From Burkholderiales bacterium (GTDB lineage Bacteria > Pseudomonadota > Gammaproteobacteria > Burkholderiales > SG8-39), in NCBI GenBank assembly GCA_919902965.1, contig CAKKSJ010000395.1:1-38439 (forward strand): 38,439 nt of DNA, in the 5' to 3' direction. Within the stretch, counting starts at the first letter, position 1. Each line of letters begins with the position of its first letter. The translations under genes and the position numbers were made by a program. Below the pieces are notes generated by a model. The model did not search any database. It saw nothing but the letters and a program-made list of their open reading frames with translations, and was not told the DNA's origin. Below are positions 1,190 to 12,591 of the stretch, piece after piece.

Positions 1190-2092
1190 TCAAACGCGGC
1201 TCATGGTCTCGCTGGCTTCGCTGACGAGAAACTCGTGGAACTTCCGAAACGCTTCGCGCTGTTCCGCCACGTGCTCATACACCAAATAGTACGCATCGTG
1301 GCAGCGGATGGTCAGATCGAACGGGCGAATCAGGACTCCGCTGCGAGTTTCGTCCTGGATCAGCGGCGTCCGTCCCAGCGCGACGCCCTGCTGATTGATC
1401 GCAGCCTCGATCAGAGTGTTGCTGTCGTTAATTATTGTTCCGTGAGAAGGCATTGGCTCGCTTACGCCAGTCGCGCGAAACCACGCCGACCAGTCTTCGT
1501 AGCTATCTTCATGGAGAAGGGTGTAGTGGCGAAGGTCACCGGGTGTGCGCAGCGGTTGCTCGCTCCGGACGTAAGCAGGTGCGCACACGGGGACAAGTTC
1601 GCATTCAAAGAGCACTTCCGAGCGCTGGGTCGGAGTGCAGCTGCCGTTTCCCCAGCGGATCGCTAGATCGACCCGCCTGAGCTGGAATTGTTCGTGGGGG
1701 AGGGCGTGATAGATATGGAGGTCGATCTCCGGATTGCGTGTCCAGAATCGGTGCAGCCTTCGGGCAAGCCACCGTGCGCCTAGCGACGGGGTGACGAGCA
1801 CGGTGAGCGGCTGGGTTTGGACCTGCTCGCGAACGTCGCGCAGGGCCTGCTCGATGCTTCGCAGGGCCAAAGATACGGAAGAGAACAAACGCTGACCGGC
1901 GTCGGTGAGCACCACCCGGCTGTGGGACCTTTCGAATAGTGGCGCTCCAAGCGCGTCCTCCAGGTGCCGGATCTGGTGGCTTACTGCTGCCTGGGTGACA
2001 GACAGTTCCTGGGCGGCCAGCGTGAAGCTTCCATGGCGCGCGGCCGCTTCGAACGACCTCAGTGCATTGAGATGGGCGAGAGCGTTAATCAT
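1190..2092 (-). CDS. LysR-family transcriptional regulator (GcvA-like subgroup), divergent from the P-protein-like operon
   Basis: N-terminal HTH LRSFEAAARHGSFTLAAQELSVTQAAVSHQIRHLEDALG. 300 aa, typical LTTR length. Divergent arrangement with 2198..12591. Confidence 0.9.
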   Translation of the reverse strand: MINALAHLNALRSFEAAARHGSFTLAAQELSVTQAAVSHQIRHLEDALGAPLFERSHSRVVLTDAGQRLFSSVSLALRSIEQALRDVREQVQTQPLTVLVTPSLGARWLARRLHRFWTRNPEIDLHIYHALPHEQFQLRRVDLAIRWGNGSCTPTQRSEVLFECELVPVCAPAYVRSEQPLRTPGDLRHYTLLHEDSYEDWSAWFRATGVSEPMPSHGTIINDSNTLIEAAINQQGVALGRTPLIQDETRSGVLIRPFDLTIRCHDAYYLVYEHVAEQREAFRKFHEFLVSEASETMSRV

Positions 2093-2122
2093 CTGGCCTG
2101 CGCATTACCTGCGCTAATGGCT

Positions 2123-2140
2123 TTGATTAGTAAAAATCAA
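2123..2140. promoter_or_regulatory. LysR-type box: TTGATT-agtaaa-AATCAA inverted repeat containing a T-N11-A core
   Basis: Read directly in the 105-bp divergent intergenic region between the LysR gene and the gcvPA-like gene. T-N11-A palindromes are the established LTTR recognition motif. Confidence 0.5.
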
Positions 2141-2197
2141 TTGTAGCTGATGCAACGTGGCTCGCATACTTTGACCGATTCCTACGCTAGGGGCACC

Positions 2198-9076: not shown

Positions 9077-10051
9077 ATGTCGCGTGCGCGGTTCCTGCTG
9101 ATCAGAATTGTCAAGGCGGTAGTGGTGGTCTGTGCGATCGCGGTCGCCAACTTCTTCCTGGTACGCATGGCGCCGGGCGACCCGGCGCAGGTTCTCGCTG
9201 GACAGTCCGGTGCCGCCGACGAGAAGTACCTAGTTCAACTGCGAGAGCAGTTCGGACTCGACAAGCCGCTGCCGACCCAGCTCTACATCTACCTGTCGAA
9301 CACCGCGCGTCTCGACCTTGGGTACTCGCACCGGCAGCAGCAGCCGGTGGCCCAGTTGATTGCGGAGCGGCTGCCGGCGACGCTGTTGCTGACCGGCTGC
9401 GCCTTCCTGTTGTCTCTTGCCGCAGGCGTTATGCTCGGCGTATGGTCGGCGCGCAACGTCGGCTCATGGGCCGATAGCGCGATCACCACGGGAGCGCTGC
9501 TGTTCTACGCGACACCGATCTTTTGGGCGGGGTTGCTGCTGGTGCTTGTCTTTTCGGTAAAGCTCGACTGGCTGCCCGCCTACGGGATGTCGACCACGGG
9601 GGCAGCGCTGCTGGGTGCCAGCGCGGTTCTCGATGTCGCGCGTCACGCGATCCTGCCGGTACTCACGCTGTCGTTATTCTACATGGCGACCTACGCACGC
9701 CTTACCCGCGCCTCGATGCTCGAGGTAAGCCAGATGGACTTCGTCAAGACGGCACGCGCCAAGGGGCTGACCGAACGCGAGGTTATGTATCGCCATGTAC
9801 TTCGCAACGCGCTCCTCCCGGTGATCACCTATGCCGGTATTCACGCCGGGGGCCTGGTCGGAGGTTCGATCGTCGTAGAGACCATCTTCGCCTGGCCGGG
9901 GATCGGCCGGCTGGCTTTCGAAGCGGTGAGTCAGCGCGACTACCCCGTGCTGCTTGGCATCTTTCTCGTGATCTCGATTCTGGTGGTGATCATTAACCTG
10001 TTGACCGACCTGTTGTACGCCGCGGTCGATCCACGGATCGATCTCAAGTGA
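9077..10051 (+). CDS. ABC transporter permease (DppB/OppB-like)
   Basis: LVRMAPGDPAQVLAG N-terminal motif, EAA-type loop (FVKTARAKGLTEREVMYRHVLRNALLPVITY), C-terminal DLLYAAVDPRI. Confidence 0.9.
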   Translation: MSRARFLLIRIVKAVVVVCAIAVANFFLVRMAPGDPAQVLAGQSGAADEKYLVQLREQFGLDKPLPTQLYIYLSNTARLDLGYSHRQQQPVAQLIAERLPATLLLTGCAFLLSLAAGVMLGVWSARNVGSWADSAITTGALLFYATPIFWAGLLLVLVFSVKLDWLPAYGMSTTGAALLGASAVLDVARHAILPVLTLSLFYMATYARLTRASMLEVSQMDFVKTARAKGLTEREVMYRHVLRNALLPVITYAGIHAGGLVGGSIVVETIFAWPGIGRLAFEAVSQRDYPVLLGIFLVISILVVIINLLTDLLYAAVDPRIDLK

Positions 10052-10120
10052 GTCTATTCTGGTGCGCGCCGCCGCAATGAAGCTTCTTGCCCCTCATTGT
10101 TTCTCGGCGAAGCCTTCCCG

Positions 10121-10963
10121 ATGAGCCCGTTCCTTCAAACCTACGCCCGCAATCGGGGAGCGGTATTCGGTTCGATCGTGCTCGCGATAGTAATCGTGGT
10201 CGCGCTGGGGGCTGCGTGGTTGTTTCCCGGGAGCCCATGGGACATGAATGGAGCGCCGTTCGAACCGCCCCTCAGCGCCGGGCTGCCGCTCGGATCCGAT
10301 ATGCTTGGGCGCGACATCGCGGCCGGAATTGCGCACGGCGCACGGGTGTCACTGCTGGTGGCGCTGATCTCGACACTGGTCGCGGTTCTTATCGGTGTCA
10401 CGCTGGGTGCGCTGGCGGGCTACTTTGGCGGATGGGTCGATCACGCGATCGTCGGATTCACCGAGTTCTTTCAGACAATTCCGAGCTTTGTGCTCGCGGT
10501 AGTTCTGGTCGCAATCTTCAACCCGAGCATCGTGGCGATCATTGGCGCCATCGCCGTGGTGTCCTGGCCGCCGCTGGCGCGGCTGGTGCGGGCCGAGTTC
10601 TTGAGCCTGCGTTCGCGGGAGTATGTGCAGGCGGCGATCCTCGGCGGCCAGTCGGATCTTGCCATCATCCTGCGCCACATCCTGCCCAACAGCGTCTCCA
10701 CCATCATCGTGACTGCATCGATGATGGTAGCTACGGCGATCCTGCTCGAGTCGGCGTTGAGTTTCCTCGGCCTGGGCGACCCGAACATGATGAGCTGGGG
10801 ATATATCATTGGTGCTTCGCGGACAGTGATGTGACAGGCGTGGTGGATGAGCGTTTTTCCCGGCCTCGCGATACTGCTCACGGTTCTATCGCTGAATCTG
10901 GTCGGAGAAGGGCTAAACGACGCGCTCAATCCACGGCTTCACCGGACCGAGGTAGCAGAGTGA
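10121..10963 (+). pseudogene. ABC transporter permease (DppC/OppC-like) interrupted by an in-frame TGA at 10832-10834. The last ~42 codons continue in the same frame.
   Basis: The track ORF ends ...IIGASRTVM*. The next in-frame codons read [42 protein letters not shown], the conserved C-terminal helix and tail of this family. The real stop at 10961-10963 overlaps the GTG of the ATPase. Confidence 0.8.
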
Positions 10964-12591
10964 ACGCGGGACGCGGGGAGGCTGTCCTGCGTGTGGAGAA
11001 CCTCGATGTGGCAATCACCTCGGGCGGTGAGCGTGCTATGGCGGTCAAGCAGGTGAGCTTCGAGGTGCAGCCTGGCGAAACAGTATGCTTGGTCGGGGAG
11101 TCAGGATCCGGGAAGTCGATGATCGCGCACGCCGTAATCGGATTGCTGCCGAAGCATGGGATCGCGCTTACCGGCGGGCGCGTCCACCTGGGCGCATACG
11201 AGATGACGTCTCTGCCGGAGAGCCAGCAGCGGATGCTGCGCGGTACCGCGGTGGGCATGATCTTTCAGGAGCCCTTGTCGGCCTTGAACCCCATCATGCA
11301 GGTCGGCGATCAAATCGACGAGGTATTGCGCGCCCATACCAGCCTCGCCGCTGGCGCTCGCTTGCAGCGCGTGCTTGCGTTGATGGTCGATGTGCAACTG
11401 CCCGACCCGGATCGCATGCGTCGCGCTTACCCGTTCCAGCTTTCAGGAGGACAACGGCAGCGTGTAATGATCGCGATTGCGCTTGCGCTGGCGCCGCGTC
11501 TGCTGATTGCCGACGAGCCGACCACTGCGCTCGACGTGACGACCCAGGCCCAGATTCTCACACTTATTCGCGAGTTGCAGCGAACGCGCGGAATCGGTGT
11601 ATTGTTCATCACCCACGACTTCGGCATCGTCAATGACATCGCCGACCATGTGCTGGTTATGTATCGGGGGGAGTGCGTCGAGTCGGGGCCCACGGCCGAC
11701 GTGCTGCGGCGTCCTTCGCATCCGTACACCCGACGCTTGATCGCCGCGGTGCCCGAGCTACGCGTGACGGCAGGAGCGTCTTCGGACGGCACTGCGGCGG
11801 TTCCCCCGCTGCTTGCCGTGCGCGACGTTTCCAAGGCATTTGCAGGACGGGGCGGACGCGTTGTTAGTGCGCTCGACGCGGTGAACCTGGAAGTGTCGGC
11901 AGGCGAGACACTGGGCGTAGTCGGCGAATCCGGATCCGGAAAATCGACGCTGGCCAAGGTGATCGTCGGGCTGCTGGTTCCGGACCATGGAAATGTCGAA
12001 TTCAACGGCAGAGACCTGGCCCGGCTGGGCCGGCGCGACCGGCGGCCGCTGCGACGTGACATCCAGATGGTGTTCCAAGACCCTTATGGCTCGCTCAATC
12101 CGCGGCATCGGATAGAGCGCATTCTGACCGAAGGCCCCTTGGTCTACGGCGAGGACCGTAGTGTGGCGATGGCGCGAGCACGAGAGCTTCTCGAACGCGT
12201 GGGCCTCGATACCAACTCGCTCTCGCGATTTCCCCACCAATTCTCCGGTGGCCAGCGGCAGCGTATCAGCATCGCGCGTGCGCTGGCTCTGCAGCCGAAG
12301 CTGCTCATCGCCGACGAGCCCGTCTCAGCGCTCGACGTCTCGGTGCAGGCGCAGGTGCTCGATCTGCTGCGCGCGCTGCAGCACGACTACAAGCTCACTA
12401 TGATCTTCATTACACACGATTTGCGCGTGGCGTCCGAAATGTGCGATCGGATCGCAGTGATGCGCGAAGGCAGGGTGGTCGAAAACGGGGACGCCGCGCA
12501 GATTTGCAGCGCCCCATCGAACAAGTATACATGCACGCTAATCGACGCGATTCCCGGGCGCGGCTGGCACAAACCCGAGGCGTGTAATTGA
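10960..12591 (+). CDS. ABC transporter ATP-binding protein with two fused ATPase domains (DppD-DppF type)
   Basis: Two Walker A sites ([18 protein letters not shown]) and two signatures (LSGGQRQR twice). GTG at 10960 gives [17 protein letters not shown]. The upstream 290 codons of track ORF 10087..12591 are an out-of-frame overlap with the permease. Confidence 0.9.

What the first reader, a model, noticed from the sequence alone, without database searches (positions are those of the whole stretch)
1190..12591. LysR-controlled 10.4-kb operon combining an orphan split P-protein-like decarboxylase, a COG3199/AcoX-like kinase, an APAH/HDAC-like amidohydrolase and a family-5 ABC importer
Seen in the sequence:
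- Eight same-strand genes (2198-12591) are joined by 4-nt overlaps (ATGA 3610-3613, GTGA 5223-5226, GTGA 10960-10963) or gaps of about 70 bp or less.
- A divergent LysR gene sits upstream with a TTGATT-N6-AATCAA box between it and the operon.
- No gcvT, gcvH or lpd-like gene occurs anywhere in the 38 kb.

Established knowledge: the glycine-cleavage P-protein needs lipoyl-H protein as acceptor, and gcvP is normally linked to gcvT/gcvH. COG3199/AcoX proteins have no settled function. APAH-type HDAC homologues deacylate N-acetylated amines.

Inference: this looks like a self-contained uptake-and-catabolism module for an imported N-acylated amine, amino-acid or small-peptide-like compound. The P-protein-like PLP enzyme would act outside the classical glycine cleavage system, with the tightly coupled kinase-fold protein as a dedicated partner. 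I do not know of a characterised pathway with this gene combination.
Basis: partly seen in the sequence, partly recalled or inferred. Interest (0 to 1): 0.7.

Follow-up and report, generated by a model that had tools for sequence, protein, structure and literature searches.

The report
Orphan glycine-decarboxylase-like catabolic operon
This operon joins an importer and a deacetylase to a widespread, unstudied relative of the glycine-cleavage P-protein that always travels with its own kinase-like partner and never with the rest of the glycine cleavage system, so databases very probably mislabel it as glycine cleavage.

Summary
A divergent GcvA-type LysR gene (1190-2092, -) faces eight same-strand genes (2198-12591): split P-protein-like PA and PB, a COG3199 NAD-kinase-fold protein, a family-5 binding protein, an acetylpolyamine-amidohydrolase-type deacetylase, and DppB, DppC and fused DppDF. 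The three 4-nt overlaps and the gaps of 70 nt or less are exact. One correction: dppC carries a nonsense codon (CGA to TGA, 10832-10834) that near-identical contigs lack.

PA and PB pass NCBIfam's GcvPA and GcvPB cut-offs but belong to a separate clade, 40-82% identical across bacterial phyla and archaea and only 27-40% identical to canonical subunits. More than 600 species genomes carry this clade, often on plasmids. In 91 loci, COG3199 lies next to PA/PB on the same strand in 71, a specific short-chain dehydrogenase is present in 67, and gcvT, gcvH or lpd in none. The universal P-protein loop REQHIRREKATSNICT is replaced and its active-site Cys is Gly. PB has a clade-specific C-terminal tail. 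No glycine riboswitch is present.

The binding-protein plus deacetylase version occurs only in Polaromonas-like Burkholderiales. I found no described function. My best reading is an uptake-and-catabolism module for an N-acetylated, probably hydroxylated, amine that works outside the glycine cleavage system. The substrate and the kinase's target remain inferred.

The parts
1190..2092 (-). Divergent LysR-family regulator of the GcvA subfamily
   Evidence: Pfam HTH_1 + LysR_substrate. NCBIfam NF008352 GcvA subfamily, 306 bits against a cut-off of 288. The same divergent arrangement occurs in L006, L025 and L026.
2104..2118 (.). Conserved LysR-type dyad ATTAC-N5-CTAAT (T-N11-A), the probable regulator recognition site
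   Evidence: Alignment of the LysR-PA intergenic regions of the window, L006, L025, L026 and L027. Relatives read ATTAG-N5-CTAAT or CTTAT.
2123..2140 (.). Only the right half (ATCAWTTG) is conserved in relatives, so it may be an activation site.
2198..3613 (+). PA: alpha subunit of an orphan P-protein-like PLP enzyme
   Evidence: Pfam GDC-P, 1e-51. NCBIfam GcvPA, 453 bits against a cut-off of 364. Only 28-31% identical to canonical GcvPA but 40-72% identical to clade members. The canonical loop REQHIRREKATSNICT is replaced by RTSFDKRENGNEFVGT, and Cys becomes Gly346.
3610..5226 (+). PB: PLP-binding beta subunit, overlapping PA by ATGA
   Evidence: NCBIfam GcvPB, 553 bits against a cut-off of 441. 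T. thermophilus 1WYT_B matches at 1e-85, with the PLP lysine motif NLHKTF kept (K303). There are 29 clade-specific fixed substitutions and a conserved extra C-terminal tail DDPxxWAxTWRAYxxK.
5223..6338 (+). COG3199-type NADK/DAGK-fold putative kinase, overlapping PB by GTGA
   Evidence: Pfam NAD_kinase 1.9e-18, NAD_kinase_C 3.5e-7 and DAGK_cat 2.8e-7. GGDGT is at residue 114, and 51 columns are invariant across 56 homologues. It has no NCBIfam family and no PDB sequence match. The AlphaFold2 model has pLDDT 91, and Foldseek gives only weak partial matches to SphK1 and DgkB.
6379..7962 (+). Family-5 periplasmic substrate-binding protein
   Evidence: Pfam SBP_bac_5, 8e-88. PDB similarity is only generic (best 6e-53, to an uncharacterised SBP5; then NikZ, AppA, GsiB, DppA). 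A GGAGGA ribosome-binding site precedes the ATG at 6379.
8000..9025 (+). Zn-dependent deacetylase of the acetylpolyamine amidohydrolase (APAH) type
   Evidence: Pfam Hist_deacetyl, 6.5e-79. Full-length matches to APAH structures 3MEN (6e-91), 9GKZ, 6PHR and 3Q9B. The catalytic motifs GHH156, DIDVHHGNG191, GFDAH280 and EGGY318 are intact.
9077..10051 (+). DppB/NikB-type ABC permease
   Evidence: Pfam BPD_transp_1 + BPD_transp_1_N, plus NCBIfam.
10121..10963 (+). DppC/NikC-type ABC permease, interrupted by a nonsense codon at 10832-10834
   Evidence: The translation shows an in-frame stop. CGA in L002 and L003 is TGA here. The gene is an intact 280 aa in those contigs.
10960..12591 (+). Fused DppD-DppF-type double ABC ATPase, overlapping dppC by GTGA
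   Evidence: Two ABC_tran domains + oligo_HPY. Best NCBIfam matches are YejF and GsiA types.

Best explanation
The locus is a LysR-controlled operon for uptake and catabolism.

Proposed sequence of events:
1. A family-5 ABC importer takes up a small N-acetylated amine, either polyamine-like or an N-omega-acetyl amino acid.
2. An APAH-type zinc deacetylase frees the terminal primary amine.
3. An orphan alpha2beta2 PLP enzyme derived from the glycine-cleavage P-protein processes the product, working with its dedicated COG3199 kinase-fold partner.
4. None of this needs the H, T or L proteins.

Shown:
- The gene identities.
- PA/PB belongs to a distinct, widespread, horizontally mobile clade.
- That clade is almost always linked to COG3199 and usually to one particular SDR, and never to gcvT or gcvH.
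- Its P-protein active-site loop and its C-terminus are remodelled.

Inferred:
- The core substrate carries both an amine and a hydroxyl group, that is, an amino alcohol or a hydroxy-amino acid. In other lineages the same core is fed by enzymes that unmask amines (APAH, M20 deacylases) or hydroxyls (GH42 and YgjK-like GH63 glycosidases). Its two accessory enzymes, kinase and SDR, both act on hydroxyls.
- The kinase phosphorylates that hydroxyl, and the PLP enzyme then decarboxylates or eliminates at the amine-bearing carbon. Precedents are PduX + CobD and hydroxylysine kinase + phospho-lyase.
- In this beta-proteobacterial version, which has no SDR, candidate substrates are N-acetyl-2-hydroxyputrescine and N-epsilon-acetyl-(hydroxy)lysine-type compounds.
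For: Distinct clade:
- PA and PB are 40-82% identical among Beta- and Alphaproteobacteria, Actinobacteria, Firmicutes and Archaea, against 27-40% identity to canonical subunits.
- There is a bit-score gap of 399-622 against 290-320 in the plasmid tblastn.

Spread:
- The best 80 span Polaromonas, Chloroflexi, Acidobacteria, Streptomyces and relatives, Paenibacillus, Heimdall- and Bathyarchaeota.

Linkage:
- COG3199 is present in 71 of 91 loci (69 of 83 evaluable), always on the same strand and mostly within 150 nt of PB.
- The SDR is present in 67 of 91 loci.
- GcvT, GcvH and Lpd are present in 0 of 91.
- Canonical gcvPA/PB sit beside gcvT, with or without gcvH.
- Pairwise-identity correlation of PB with COG3199 is 0.73, against 0.88 for PB with PA.

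Mobility:
- The module lies on plasmids, including a conjugative one.
- Modules 74-82% identical are shared by Sphingomonas, Gemmobacter and Rhodococcus.

Active site:
- The PLP lysine and 91 core positions of PB are kept.
- The loop REQHIRREKATSNICT in PA is replaced, and its Cys is Gly in at least 90% of clade members. PMC10185560 places that Cys in the active site.
- A clade-specific C-terminal tail is present. In Synechocystis P-protein the C-terminus gates the active-site entrance (PMC10185560).

Regulation:
- A tandem glycine riboswitch precedes canonical gcvT in L021 and precedes grdX in L009.
- None precedes the orphan module in the window, L045, L075 or L009.

Kinase-PLP logic: COG3199 also overlaps a HisC/CobD-family PLP enzyme, a family that acts on phospho-esters, in P. 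acidaminophilum.

Deacetylase: it is APAH-type with an intact catalytic set.

Operon conservation: the same nine-gene arrangement occurs in L006, L025 and L026 at 64-77% identity.
Against: - PA and PB exceed NCBIfam's equivalog cut-offs for GcvPA and GcvPB, and the regulator exceeds the GcvA subfamily cut-off.
- The GxCTMKYNP motif and most PLP-site residues of PB are conserved, so glycine itself cannot be excluded as substrate.
- gcvP is unlinked to gcvT and gcvH in some bacteria, so missing linkage alone is weak evidence.
- Neither COG3199 nor the SDR is universal. Paenibacillus, Bacillus sp. F19 and Natronosalvus lack the kinase, and this window lacks the SDR. Neither can therefore be strictly required for PA/PB chemistry.
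- Flanking genes outside the core are heterogeneous, which limits inference about the substrate.
- The kinase's substrate is unknown. It could simply be an NAD(H) kinase.
- dppC is interrupted in this particular contig.
- There are no expression or biochemical data.
Confidence: 0.6

Rival explanations
1. PA/PB is a genuine, second (inducible) glycine decarboxylase. It hands the aminomethyl group to the cell's housekeeping H-protein. The operon imports and deacylates glycine-containing or N-acyl-glycine compounds, and COG3199 plays an auxiliary role, for example NAD(P) supply.
For: - NCBIfam GcvPA and GcvPB equivalog cut-offs and the GcvA subfamily cut-off are all passed.
- The PLP lysine, the GxCTMKYNP motif and 91 core positions are conserved with canonical PB.
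- In two Clostridia-type contigs the module lies 5-7 kb from the glycine reductase genes.
Against: - It is a separate clade at 27-40% identity.
- 0 of 91 loci carry gcvT, gcvH or lpd.
- The highly conserved alpha-subunit loop with the active-site Cys is replaced.
- There is no glycine riboswitch, even where the neighbouring grd operon has one.
- The clade is plasmid-borne and horizontally transferred.
- In actinobacteria it is linked to GH42 and GH63 glycosidases and sugar ABC transporters, which do not release glycine.
- APAH-type enzymes act on N-acetylated alkylamines, not on N-acetylglycine (established knowledge of the family; homology).
Confidence: 0.2
2. The module is biosynthetic rather than catabolic. 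PA/PB decarboxylatively couples glycine, or decarboxylates a phospho-amino acid, to make an amino alcohol or aminoketone. This would parallel ALA synthase or serine palmitoyltransferase, or PduX + CobD. The SDR would reduce the product and the kinase phosphorylate it, giving a phosphorylated amino alcohol used as a head group, cofactor linker or signal.
For: - The enzyme set (PLP enzyme, SDR, DAGK/SphK-fold kinase) mirrors sphingoid-base metabolism.
- Foldseek's only high-probability partial hits are SphK1 and DgkB.
- PAP2 lipid phosphatases flank the module in three Heimdallarchaeota contigs.
- AMP-binding or acyl-CoA synthetase genes flank it in Gemmobacter and Rhodococcus.
- COG3199 pairs with a CobD/HisC-like enzyme.
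Against: - In this window and most annotated loci the neighbours are importers, deacylases, glycosidases and substrate-responsive regulators (LysR, GntR, sigma-54 activators). That is the signature of catabolism.
- The PAP2 and AMP-binding links are each confined to one lineage.
Confidence: 0.12
3. The gene order is a lineage-specific accident. PA-PB-COG3199 and SBP5-APAH-DppBCDF would be two unrelated units that merely abut in Polaromonas-like bacteria, and in this contig the transporter is decaying (dppC nonsense).
For: - The SBP5 + APAH + Dpp association is seen in only 4 of 91 loci, all Burkholderiales.
- dppC has a premature stop here.
- There is no expression evidence.
Against: - The arrangement persists at 64-77% protein identity (L006, L025, L026) with short same-strand gaps (40 nt between COG3199 and the SBP gene).
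- There is no terminator signal above chance.
- A single divergent regulator serves the block.
- Other lineages pair the same core with other deacylases (M20/ArgE) and importers, so the logic recurs.
Confidence: 0.08

Closest known systems
Glycine cleavage system P-protein, split form (GcvPA/GcvPB; e.g. Thermus thermophilus 1WYT, Bacillus subtilis gcvPA/gcvPB)
   Same: - Same fold and alpha/beta split.
- The PLP lysine motif NLHKTF and the GxCTMKYNP motif are kept.
- The NCBIfam cut-offs are passed.
   Different: - Separate clade at 27-40% identity.
- Never linked to gcvT, gcvH or lpd in 91 loci.
- The alpha-subunit loop REQHIRREKATSNICT is replaced and its Cys lost.
- PB carries 29 fixed changes and an extra conserved C-terminal tail.
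- No glycine riboswitch.
- Often plasmid-borne.
- Coupled to a kinase-fold protein and an SDR.
Kinase + PLP-enzyme pairs acting on hydroxylated amines: PduX + CobD (L-threonine kinase and threonine-phosphate decarboxylase), hydroxylysine kinase + 5-phosphohydroxylysine phospho-lyase, ethanolamine kinase + phosphoethanolamine phospho-lyase
   Same: - A kinase gene is tightly coupled to a PLP enzyme gene.
- COG3199 also pairs with a CobD/HisC-family PLP enzyme.
- The context implies a substrate with both an amine and a hydroxyl.
   Different: - Both protein families differ: NADK/DAGK fold instead of GHMP or APH kinases, and P-protein fold instead of class I/III aminotransferase folds.
- No activity has been shown.
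- This analogy comes from my own knowledge of those pathways and was not tested here.
Acetylpolyamine amidohydrolases (Mycoplana ramosa APAH 3Q9B, Burkholderia pseudomallei 3MEN, Pseudomonas aeruginosa PA0321/PA1409)
   Same: The window protein matches them over its full length (6e-91 to 5e-80) and keeps the His-His, Asp/His/Asp zinc and Tyr motifs.
   Different: - Known APAHs are not reported in operons with a P-protein-like enzyme or a family-5 ABC importer, as far as my searches reach.
- The substrate here is unknown.
AcoX of acetoin operons (acoXABC)
   Same: Both are described as NAD-kinase-like proteins of unknown function that sit next to an alpha/beta two-subunit decarboxylating enzyme (PMC10107126, PMC9676059).
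   Different: - No AcoX sequence was available for a direct comparison.
- tblastn of the window protein against 72,556 plasmids at E<=0.01 gave 13 records, and none of the seven whose surroundings I examined contains aco genes.
- The partner here depends on PLP, not thiamine diphosphate.

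Membership tests
Glycine cleavage system P-protein (GcvPA/GcvPB) | Sequence membership by a curated profile | tested here: met
   NCBIfam NF001696 GcvPA 453 bits (cut-off 364). NF003346 GcvPB 553 bits (cut-off 441).
Glycine cleavage system P-protein (GcvPA/GcvPB) | PLP-binding lysine and core PLP-site residues | tested here: met
   NLHKTF with K303 aligned to T. thermophilus 1WYT_B. 91 positions are conserved in both clades.
Glycine cleavage system P-protein (GcvPA/GcvPB) | Conserved alpha-half active-site loop REQHIRR(E/D)KATSNICT, including the active-site Cys | tested here: not met
   Replaced by RTSFxxREEGKEWVGT. The Cys is Gly in at least 90% of 62 clade members, against Cys in 4 of 4 canonical subunits. 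The role of the Cys is taken from PMC10185560.
Glycine cleavage system P-protein (GcvPA/GcvPB) | Groups with canonical P-proteins in sequence comparison | tested here: not met
   Own clade. 27-34% (PA) and 30-40% (PB) identity to canonical subunits, against 40-82% within the clade. Canonical subunits are 34-54% identical to each other.
Glycine cleavage system P-protein (GcvPA/GcvPB) | Genomic association with gcvT, gcvH or lpd, or control by a glycine riboswitch | tested here: not met
   0 of 91 loci have GcvT, GcvH or Lpd within 10 kb. There is no glycine riboswitch in the window, L045, L075 or upstream of the L009 module, while L021 (canonical) has one.
Glycine cleavage system P-protein (GcvPA/GcvPB) | H-protein (lipoyl)-dependent glycine decarboxylation | not testable with these tools
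   Needs an enzyme assay.
NAD kinase / DAG kinase / sphingosine kinase superfamily (COG3199 branch) | Two-domain NADK architecture with the GGDGT nucleotide-binding motif | tested here: met
   Pfam NAD_kinase 1.9e-18, NAD_kinase_C 3.5e-7 and DAGK_cat 2.8e-7. GGDGT at residue 114 is invariant in 56 homologues.
NAD kinase / DAG kinase / sphingosine kinase superfamily (COG3199 branch) | Close structural match to a solved kinase, or demonstrated NAD kinase activity | tested here: inconclusive
   The model has pLDDT 91, but the best Foldseek matches have E>0.002 and TM 0.2-0.3, covering 140-215 columns of SphK1 or DgkB. There is no PDB sequence hit. Activity cannot be tested here.
Acetylpolyamine amidohydrolase (class II HDAC-like) | Full-length homology to APAH, plus tandem His, Asp-His-Asp zinc ligands and catalytic Tyr | tested here: met
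   3MEN 6e-91, 6PHR 1e-80, 3Q9B 5e-80. Motifs GHH156, DIDVHHGNG191, GFDAH280 and EGGY318.
Acetylpolyamine amidohydrolase (class II HDAC-like) | Activity on N-acetylated polyamines | not testable with these tools
   Needs an enzyme assay.
Family-5 (Dpp/Opp/Nik-type) ABC importer | SBP5 + two permeases + two ATPase domains in one operon | tested here: met
   In this contig the DppC permease carries a premature stop.
AcoX (acetoin operon protein X) | Detectable homology to AcoX, or linkage to acoABC | tested here: inconclusive
   Plasmid tblastn at E<=0.01 gave 13 records. None of the seven whose surroundings I examined contains aco genes. No AcoX reference sequence was available for a direct comparison.

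The most novel reading that the evidence does not exclude
PA/PB + COG3199 (+ SDR) is a previously unrecognised PLP-dependent pathway, present in hundreds of bacterial and archaeal species and annotated everywhere as 'glycine cleavage P-protein + NAD kinase'. A P-protein scaffold has been repurposed, free of the H-protein, to break down vicinal amino alcohols. Candidates are 5-hydroxylysine released from collagen-type Glc-Gal-Hyl by YgjK-like GH63 and GH42 enzymes in actinobacteria, and 2-hydroxyputrescine or N-acetylated derivatives in beta-proteobacteria. The NADK-fold protein would be a new small-molecule hydroxyl kinase rather than an NAD kinase.
Probability: 0.3. Interest if true: 0.85.

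Novelty: new variant of a known kind. Interest (0 to 1): 0.64.

Why it matters
If the reading is right, three things follow.
1. A large set of genes that pass the curated GcvPA and GcvPB models (more than 600 species in the scan) is misassigned to glycine cleavage. That distorts metabolic reconstructions, including those of Heimdall- and Bathyarchaeota, Chloroflexi and Streptomyces.
2. The P-protein fold would gain a second, lipoyl-independent chemistry.
3. The COG3199 family has no solved structure and no known function. It would gain a testable role as the dedicated partner of a PLP enzyme.

The module occurs in cultivable, genetically tractable hosts such as Rhodococcus jostii RHA1 (pRHL1), Streptomyces and Paenibacillus, so the question is directly testable.

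Tried and rejected
- Literature. None described this module.
- P-protein structure papers. The papers by Nakai (2005) and Hasse (2013) are not held. I therefore could not map the clade-specific substitutions onto the glycine or lipoamide sites.
- Structure of COG3199. The model is confident, but Foldseek found no informative full-length match.
- SBP5 ligand. PDB matches are generic.
- Promoter and terminator scan. No sigma-70 hits, and terminators at the chance level.
- Pfam census of 122 genes flanking non-sugar-type loci. Only Peptidase_M20 recurs (5 proteins). MBL and PAP2 occur 3 times each, and the rest is heterogeneous. No single feeder pathway emerges.
- Canonical gcvTHP in the same genome.
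- 'Simply the housekeeping P-protein'. Rejected as the leading explanation, for the reasons given under the rivals.
- Hydroxylysine/collagen idea. It rests on my recollection of YgjK's preference for Glc-alpha-1,2-Gal. I could not support it from held papers, so I kept it only as the novel case.

Full report
**Observation**

The window is a metagenome contig from Hainich groundwater (ERZ1292621). Near-identical contigs exist in other samples. ORF listing, Pfam and NCBIfam give the following genes.

| Coordinates | Strand | Gene |
|---|---|---|
| 1190-2092 | - | LysR regulator; passes NCBIfam's GcvA subfamily cut-off |
| 2198-3613 | + | PA (GDC-P) |
| 3610-5226 | + | PB (GDC-P/GcvP2_C) |
| 5223-6338 | + | NAD_kinase/NAD_kinase_C/DAGK_cat protein |
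| 6379-7962 | + | SBP_bac_5 protein |
| 8000-9025 | + | Hist_deacetyl protein |
| 9077-10051 | + | DppB-like permease |
| 10121-10963 | + | DppC-like permease |
| 10960-12591 | + | Fused double ABC ATPase |

The remaining gaps are 40, 37, 51 and 69 nt.
- The repeat TTGATT-N6-AATCAA lies at 2123-2140.
- tblastn with GcvT, GcvH and Lpd seeds from Brevibacillus, Legionella and Haloterrigena finds nothing in the 38 kb.

There are four corrections.
- dppC has an in-frame TGA at 10832-10834. Contigs L002 and L003 read CGA there and encode an intact 280-aa protein.
Only the right half of that repeat, ATCAWTTG, is conserved.
- The deacetylase is specifically of the acetylpolyamine amidohydrolase type. 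It matches 3MEN (6e-91), 6PHR and 3Q9B over its full length, and all catalytic motifs are present.
- The 'AcoX-like' label could not be verified.

**PA/PB is not a canonical P-protein**

Both subunits pass NCBIfam's equivalog cut-offs, so PGAP names such genes gcvPA and gcvPB, as in the plasmid records. The PLP lysine motif NLHKTF is intact.

- **Separate clade.** In an identity matrix of 15 loci, the PA/PB pairs found next to COG3199 form their own group. Identity is 40-82% across Beta- and Alphaproteobacteria, Actinobacteria, Firmicutes and a haloarchaeon. Identity to canonical subunits is 27-34% (PA) and 30-40% (PB). Canonical subunits are 34-54% identical to each other.
- **Bit-score gap.** tblastn against 72,556 plasmids gives 399-622 bits for the clade and 290-320 bits for canonical GcvPB.
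- **Linkage of canonical genes.** Canonical split genes in Brevibacillus, Legionella and Haloterrigena sit directly beside gcvT, with gcvH in the last two.
- **Sequence differences in PB.** Comparing 97 clade PBs with 17 canonical PBs, 91 positions are conserved in both and 29 are fixed differently. The clade PB is about 40 residues longer. It carries a conserved C-terminal tail, DDPxxWAxTWRAYxxK, that canonical PB lacks.
- **Sequence differences in PA.** The loop TLQxREQHIRREKATSNICTNQ, identical in four canonical subunits from four phyla, is replaced by EYGFGDVAYxRTSFxxREEGKEWVGTAAALWG. The Cys of SNICT is Gly in at least 90% of 62 clade members. PMC10185560 places this Cys (C353 in Synechocystis, C335 in E. 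coli) in the active site, reports a more than sixfold loss of activity on mutation, and describes the C-terminus as gating the active-site entrance.
- **Riboswitch.** A tandem glycine riboswitch precedes canonical gcvT in L021. In L009 one precedes grdX, 7 kb from the orphan module. None precedes the module in the window, Streptomyces L045, Paenibacillus L075 or L009.

**The neighbourhood recurs**

- The COG3199 protein has more than 8,000 database relatives.
- Context look-ups show the whole nine-gene arrangement in a 64%-identical locus (L006). They also show SDR-PA-PB-COG3199 under a sigma-54 activator in Clostridia-type contigs.
- Annotated plasmids of Sphingomonas (conjugative), Gemmobacter, Rhodococcus, Paracoccus aminophilus, Roseicitreum and Antarctobacter carry COG3199-gcvPA-gcvPB. 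The neighbours are SDRs, alcohol dehydrogenases, APC permeases, AMP-binding enzymes and an ArgE/DapE deacylase.
The best 80 loci (59-77% identity) include two Polaromonas MAGs with the same operon, Chloroflexi, Acidobacteria, many Streptomyces, Kitasatospora, Nonomuraea, Actinomadura and Leifsonia, Paenibacillus, Heimdallarchaeota and a Bathyarchaeote.

Across 91 loci, tblastn counts are as follows.

| Feature | Loci (of 91) |
|---|---|
| COG3199 | 71 (69 of 83 evaluable) |
| One particular SDR at 45% identity or more | 67 |
| GH42 beta-galactosidase | 34 |
| YgjK-like GH63 alpha-glucosidase | 33 |
| GntR regulator | 34 |
| SBP5 + APAH | 4 (window, L006, L025, L026) |
| GcvT, GcvH or Lpd | 0 |

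- COG3199 is always co-oriented with PA/PB. It sits directly after PB in about 60 loci, or directly before PA in the plasmid type.
- Pairwise identities of PB and COG3199 correlate at r=0.73. The value for PB with PA is 0.88, and for PB with the SDR 0.84.
- Beyond this core the flanks are heterogeneous. Only M20 peptidases recur in the non-sugar loci.

**The COG3199 protein**

- It keeps GGDGT and 51 invariant columns across 56 homologues.
- It has no NCBIfam family and no PDB sequence match.
- It gives a confident AlphaFold2 model, pLDDT 91.
- Foldseek finds only weak partial matches of the N-terminal domain to sphingosine kinase 1 and DgkB.
- Relatives also occur alone next to yfcL in Shewanella-type genomes.
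- One relative overlaps pdxB by 4 nt in a gammaproteobacterial contig.
- Another overlaps a HisC/CobD-family PLP enzyme in Peptoclostridium acidaminophilum.
- AcoX was still 'of unknown function' in 2022 (PMC10107126) and is only a predicted NAD kinase (PMC9676059).

**How it most likely works**

Shown:
- An importer, an APAH-type deacetylase, an orphan P-protein-like PLP enzyme and a kinase-fold partner lie under one divergent LysR regulator.
- The PLP enzyme and kinase form a unit conserved across domains of life, independent of the other glycine-cleavage genes.

Inferred:
- Different lineages feed the core through enzymes that unmask an amine (APAH here, M20/ArgE elsewhere) or a hydroxyl (GH42 and GH63). 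The two accessory enzymes, kinase and SDR, both act on hydroxyls. The core substrate is therefore probably a small compound with both an amine and a hydroxyl.
- Known kinase + PLP-enzyme pairs are PduX + CobD, hydroxylysine kinase + phospho-lyase, and ethanolamine kinase + phospho-lyase (my own knowledge, not tested here). By analogy, I propose that the hydroxyl is phosphorylated and the PLP enzyme then decarboxylates or eliminates.
- Neither the kinase nor the SDR is universal, so this step order is uncertain.
- For this operon, N-acetylated polyamine-like compounds are the most direct guess.

**Rivals**

- A second true glycine decarboxylase using the housekeeping H-protein: 0.2.
- A biosynthetic amino-alcohol module: 0.12.
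- An accidental juxtaposition of two units: 0.08.

**Novelty**

Nothing in the searchable literature describes the module. I rate it a new variant of a known kind: a PLP-dependent catabolic operon built on a repurposed P-protein. It also has real annotation consequences.

Noticed in passing
window 10832-10834: The DppC-like permease carries a premature TGA. Near-identical contigs from other samples (L002, L003) read CGA (Arg) there. This is either a strain-specific pseudogene or an error at about 7x coverage.
   Followed up: yes
window 12915-13543: A MazE/AbrB-type antitoxin gene and an overlapping PIN-domain toxin gene (VapBC-like pair) lie directly downstream of the operon. An MFS transporter gene follows at 13540-14778. 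The domain calls come from the gene table of the identical contig L001.
   Followed up: partly
L107 4877-7152 (also L008, L105): In gammaproteobacterial contigs a 47-50%-identical COG3199 protein is not linked to PA/PB. In L107 it overlaps pdxB (erythronate-4-phosphate dehydrogenase, vitamin B6 synthesis) by 4 nt. In Shewanella-type loci it sits between aroC and yfcL. This may link the family to PLP metabolism.
   Followed up: no
L013 8992-11068 (Peptoclostridium acidaminophilum plasmid): COG3199 overlaps a 328-aa HisC/CobD-family PLP enzyme. That family acts on phosphorylated amino alcohols or amino acids. This suggests COG3199 proteins may generally supply phospho-ester substrates to PLP enzymes.
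   Followed up: partly
L038, L045, L048, L054, L061, L066 and about 25 further actinobacterial loci; Paenibacillus L075, L083, L086; alphaproteobacterial MAG L064: The orphan PA-PB(-COG3199)-SDR core is flanked by a sugar-type ABC importer, a GH42 beta-galactosidase, a YgjK-like GH63 alpha-glucosidase and a GntR regulator. This points to a glycosylated amine as the feedstock in those lineages.
   Followed up: partly
L091, L092, L103 (Heimdallarchaeota): One or two membrane PAP2-family phosphatase genes lie immediately upstream of SDR-SDR-PA-PB-COG3199 in three Heimdallarchaeota MAGs. A conserved 316-aa protein with no Pfam hit lies downstream.
   Followed up: partly
L024 3460-8481 (Deinococcus sp. 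QL22 plasmid): This is another orphan gcvPA/gcvPB pair without gcvT or gcvH, but of the canonical sequence type. A MOSC-domain protein and a class-III aminotransferase follow it. It is a different unexplained context.
   Followed up: no
L030 and L033 (Chloroflexi): A molybdopterin oxidoreductase gene (647 aa) sits between PB and the SDRs. In L033 it occupies the place of COG3199. M20, class-III aminotransferase, RidA, URO-D-like and PALP genes lie upstream.
   Followed up: no
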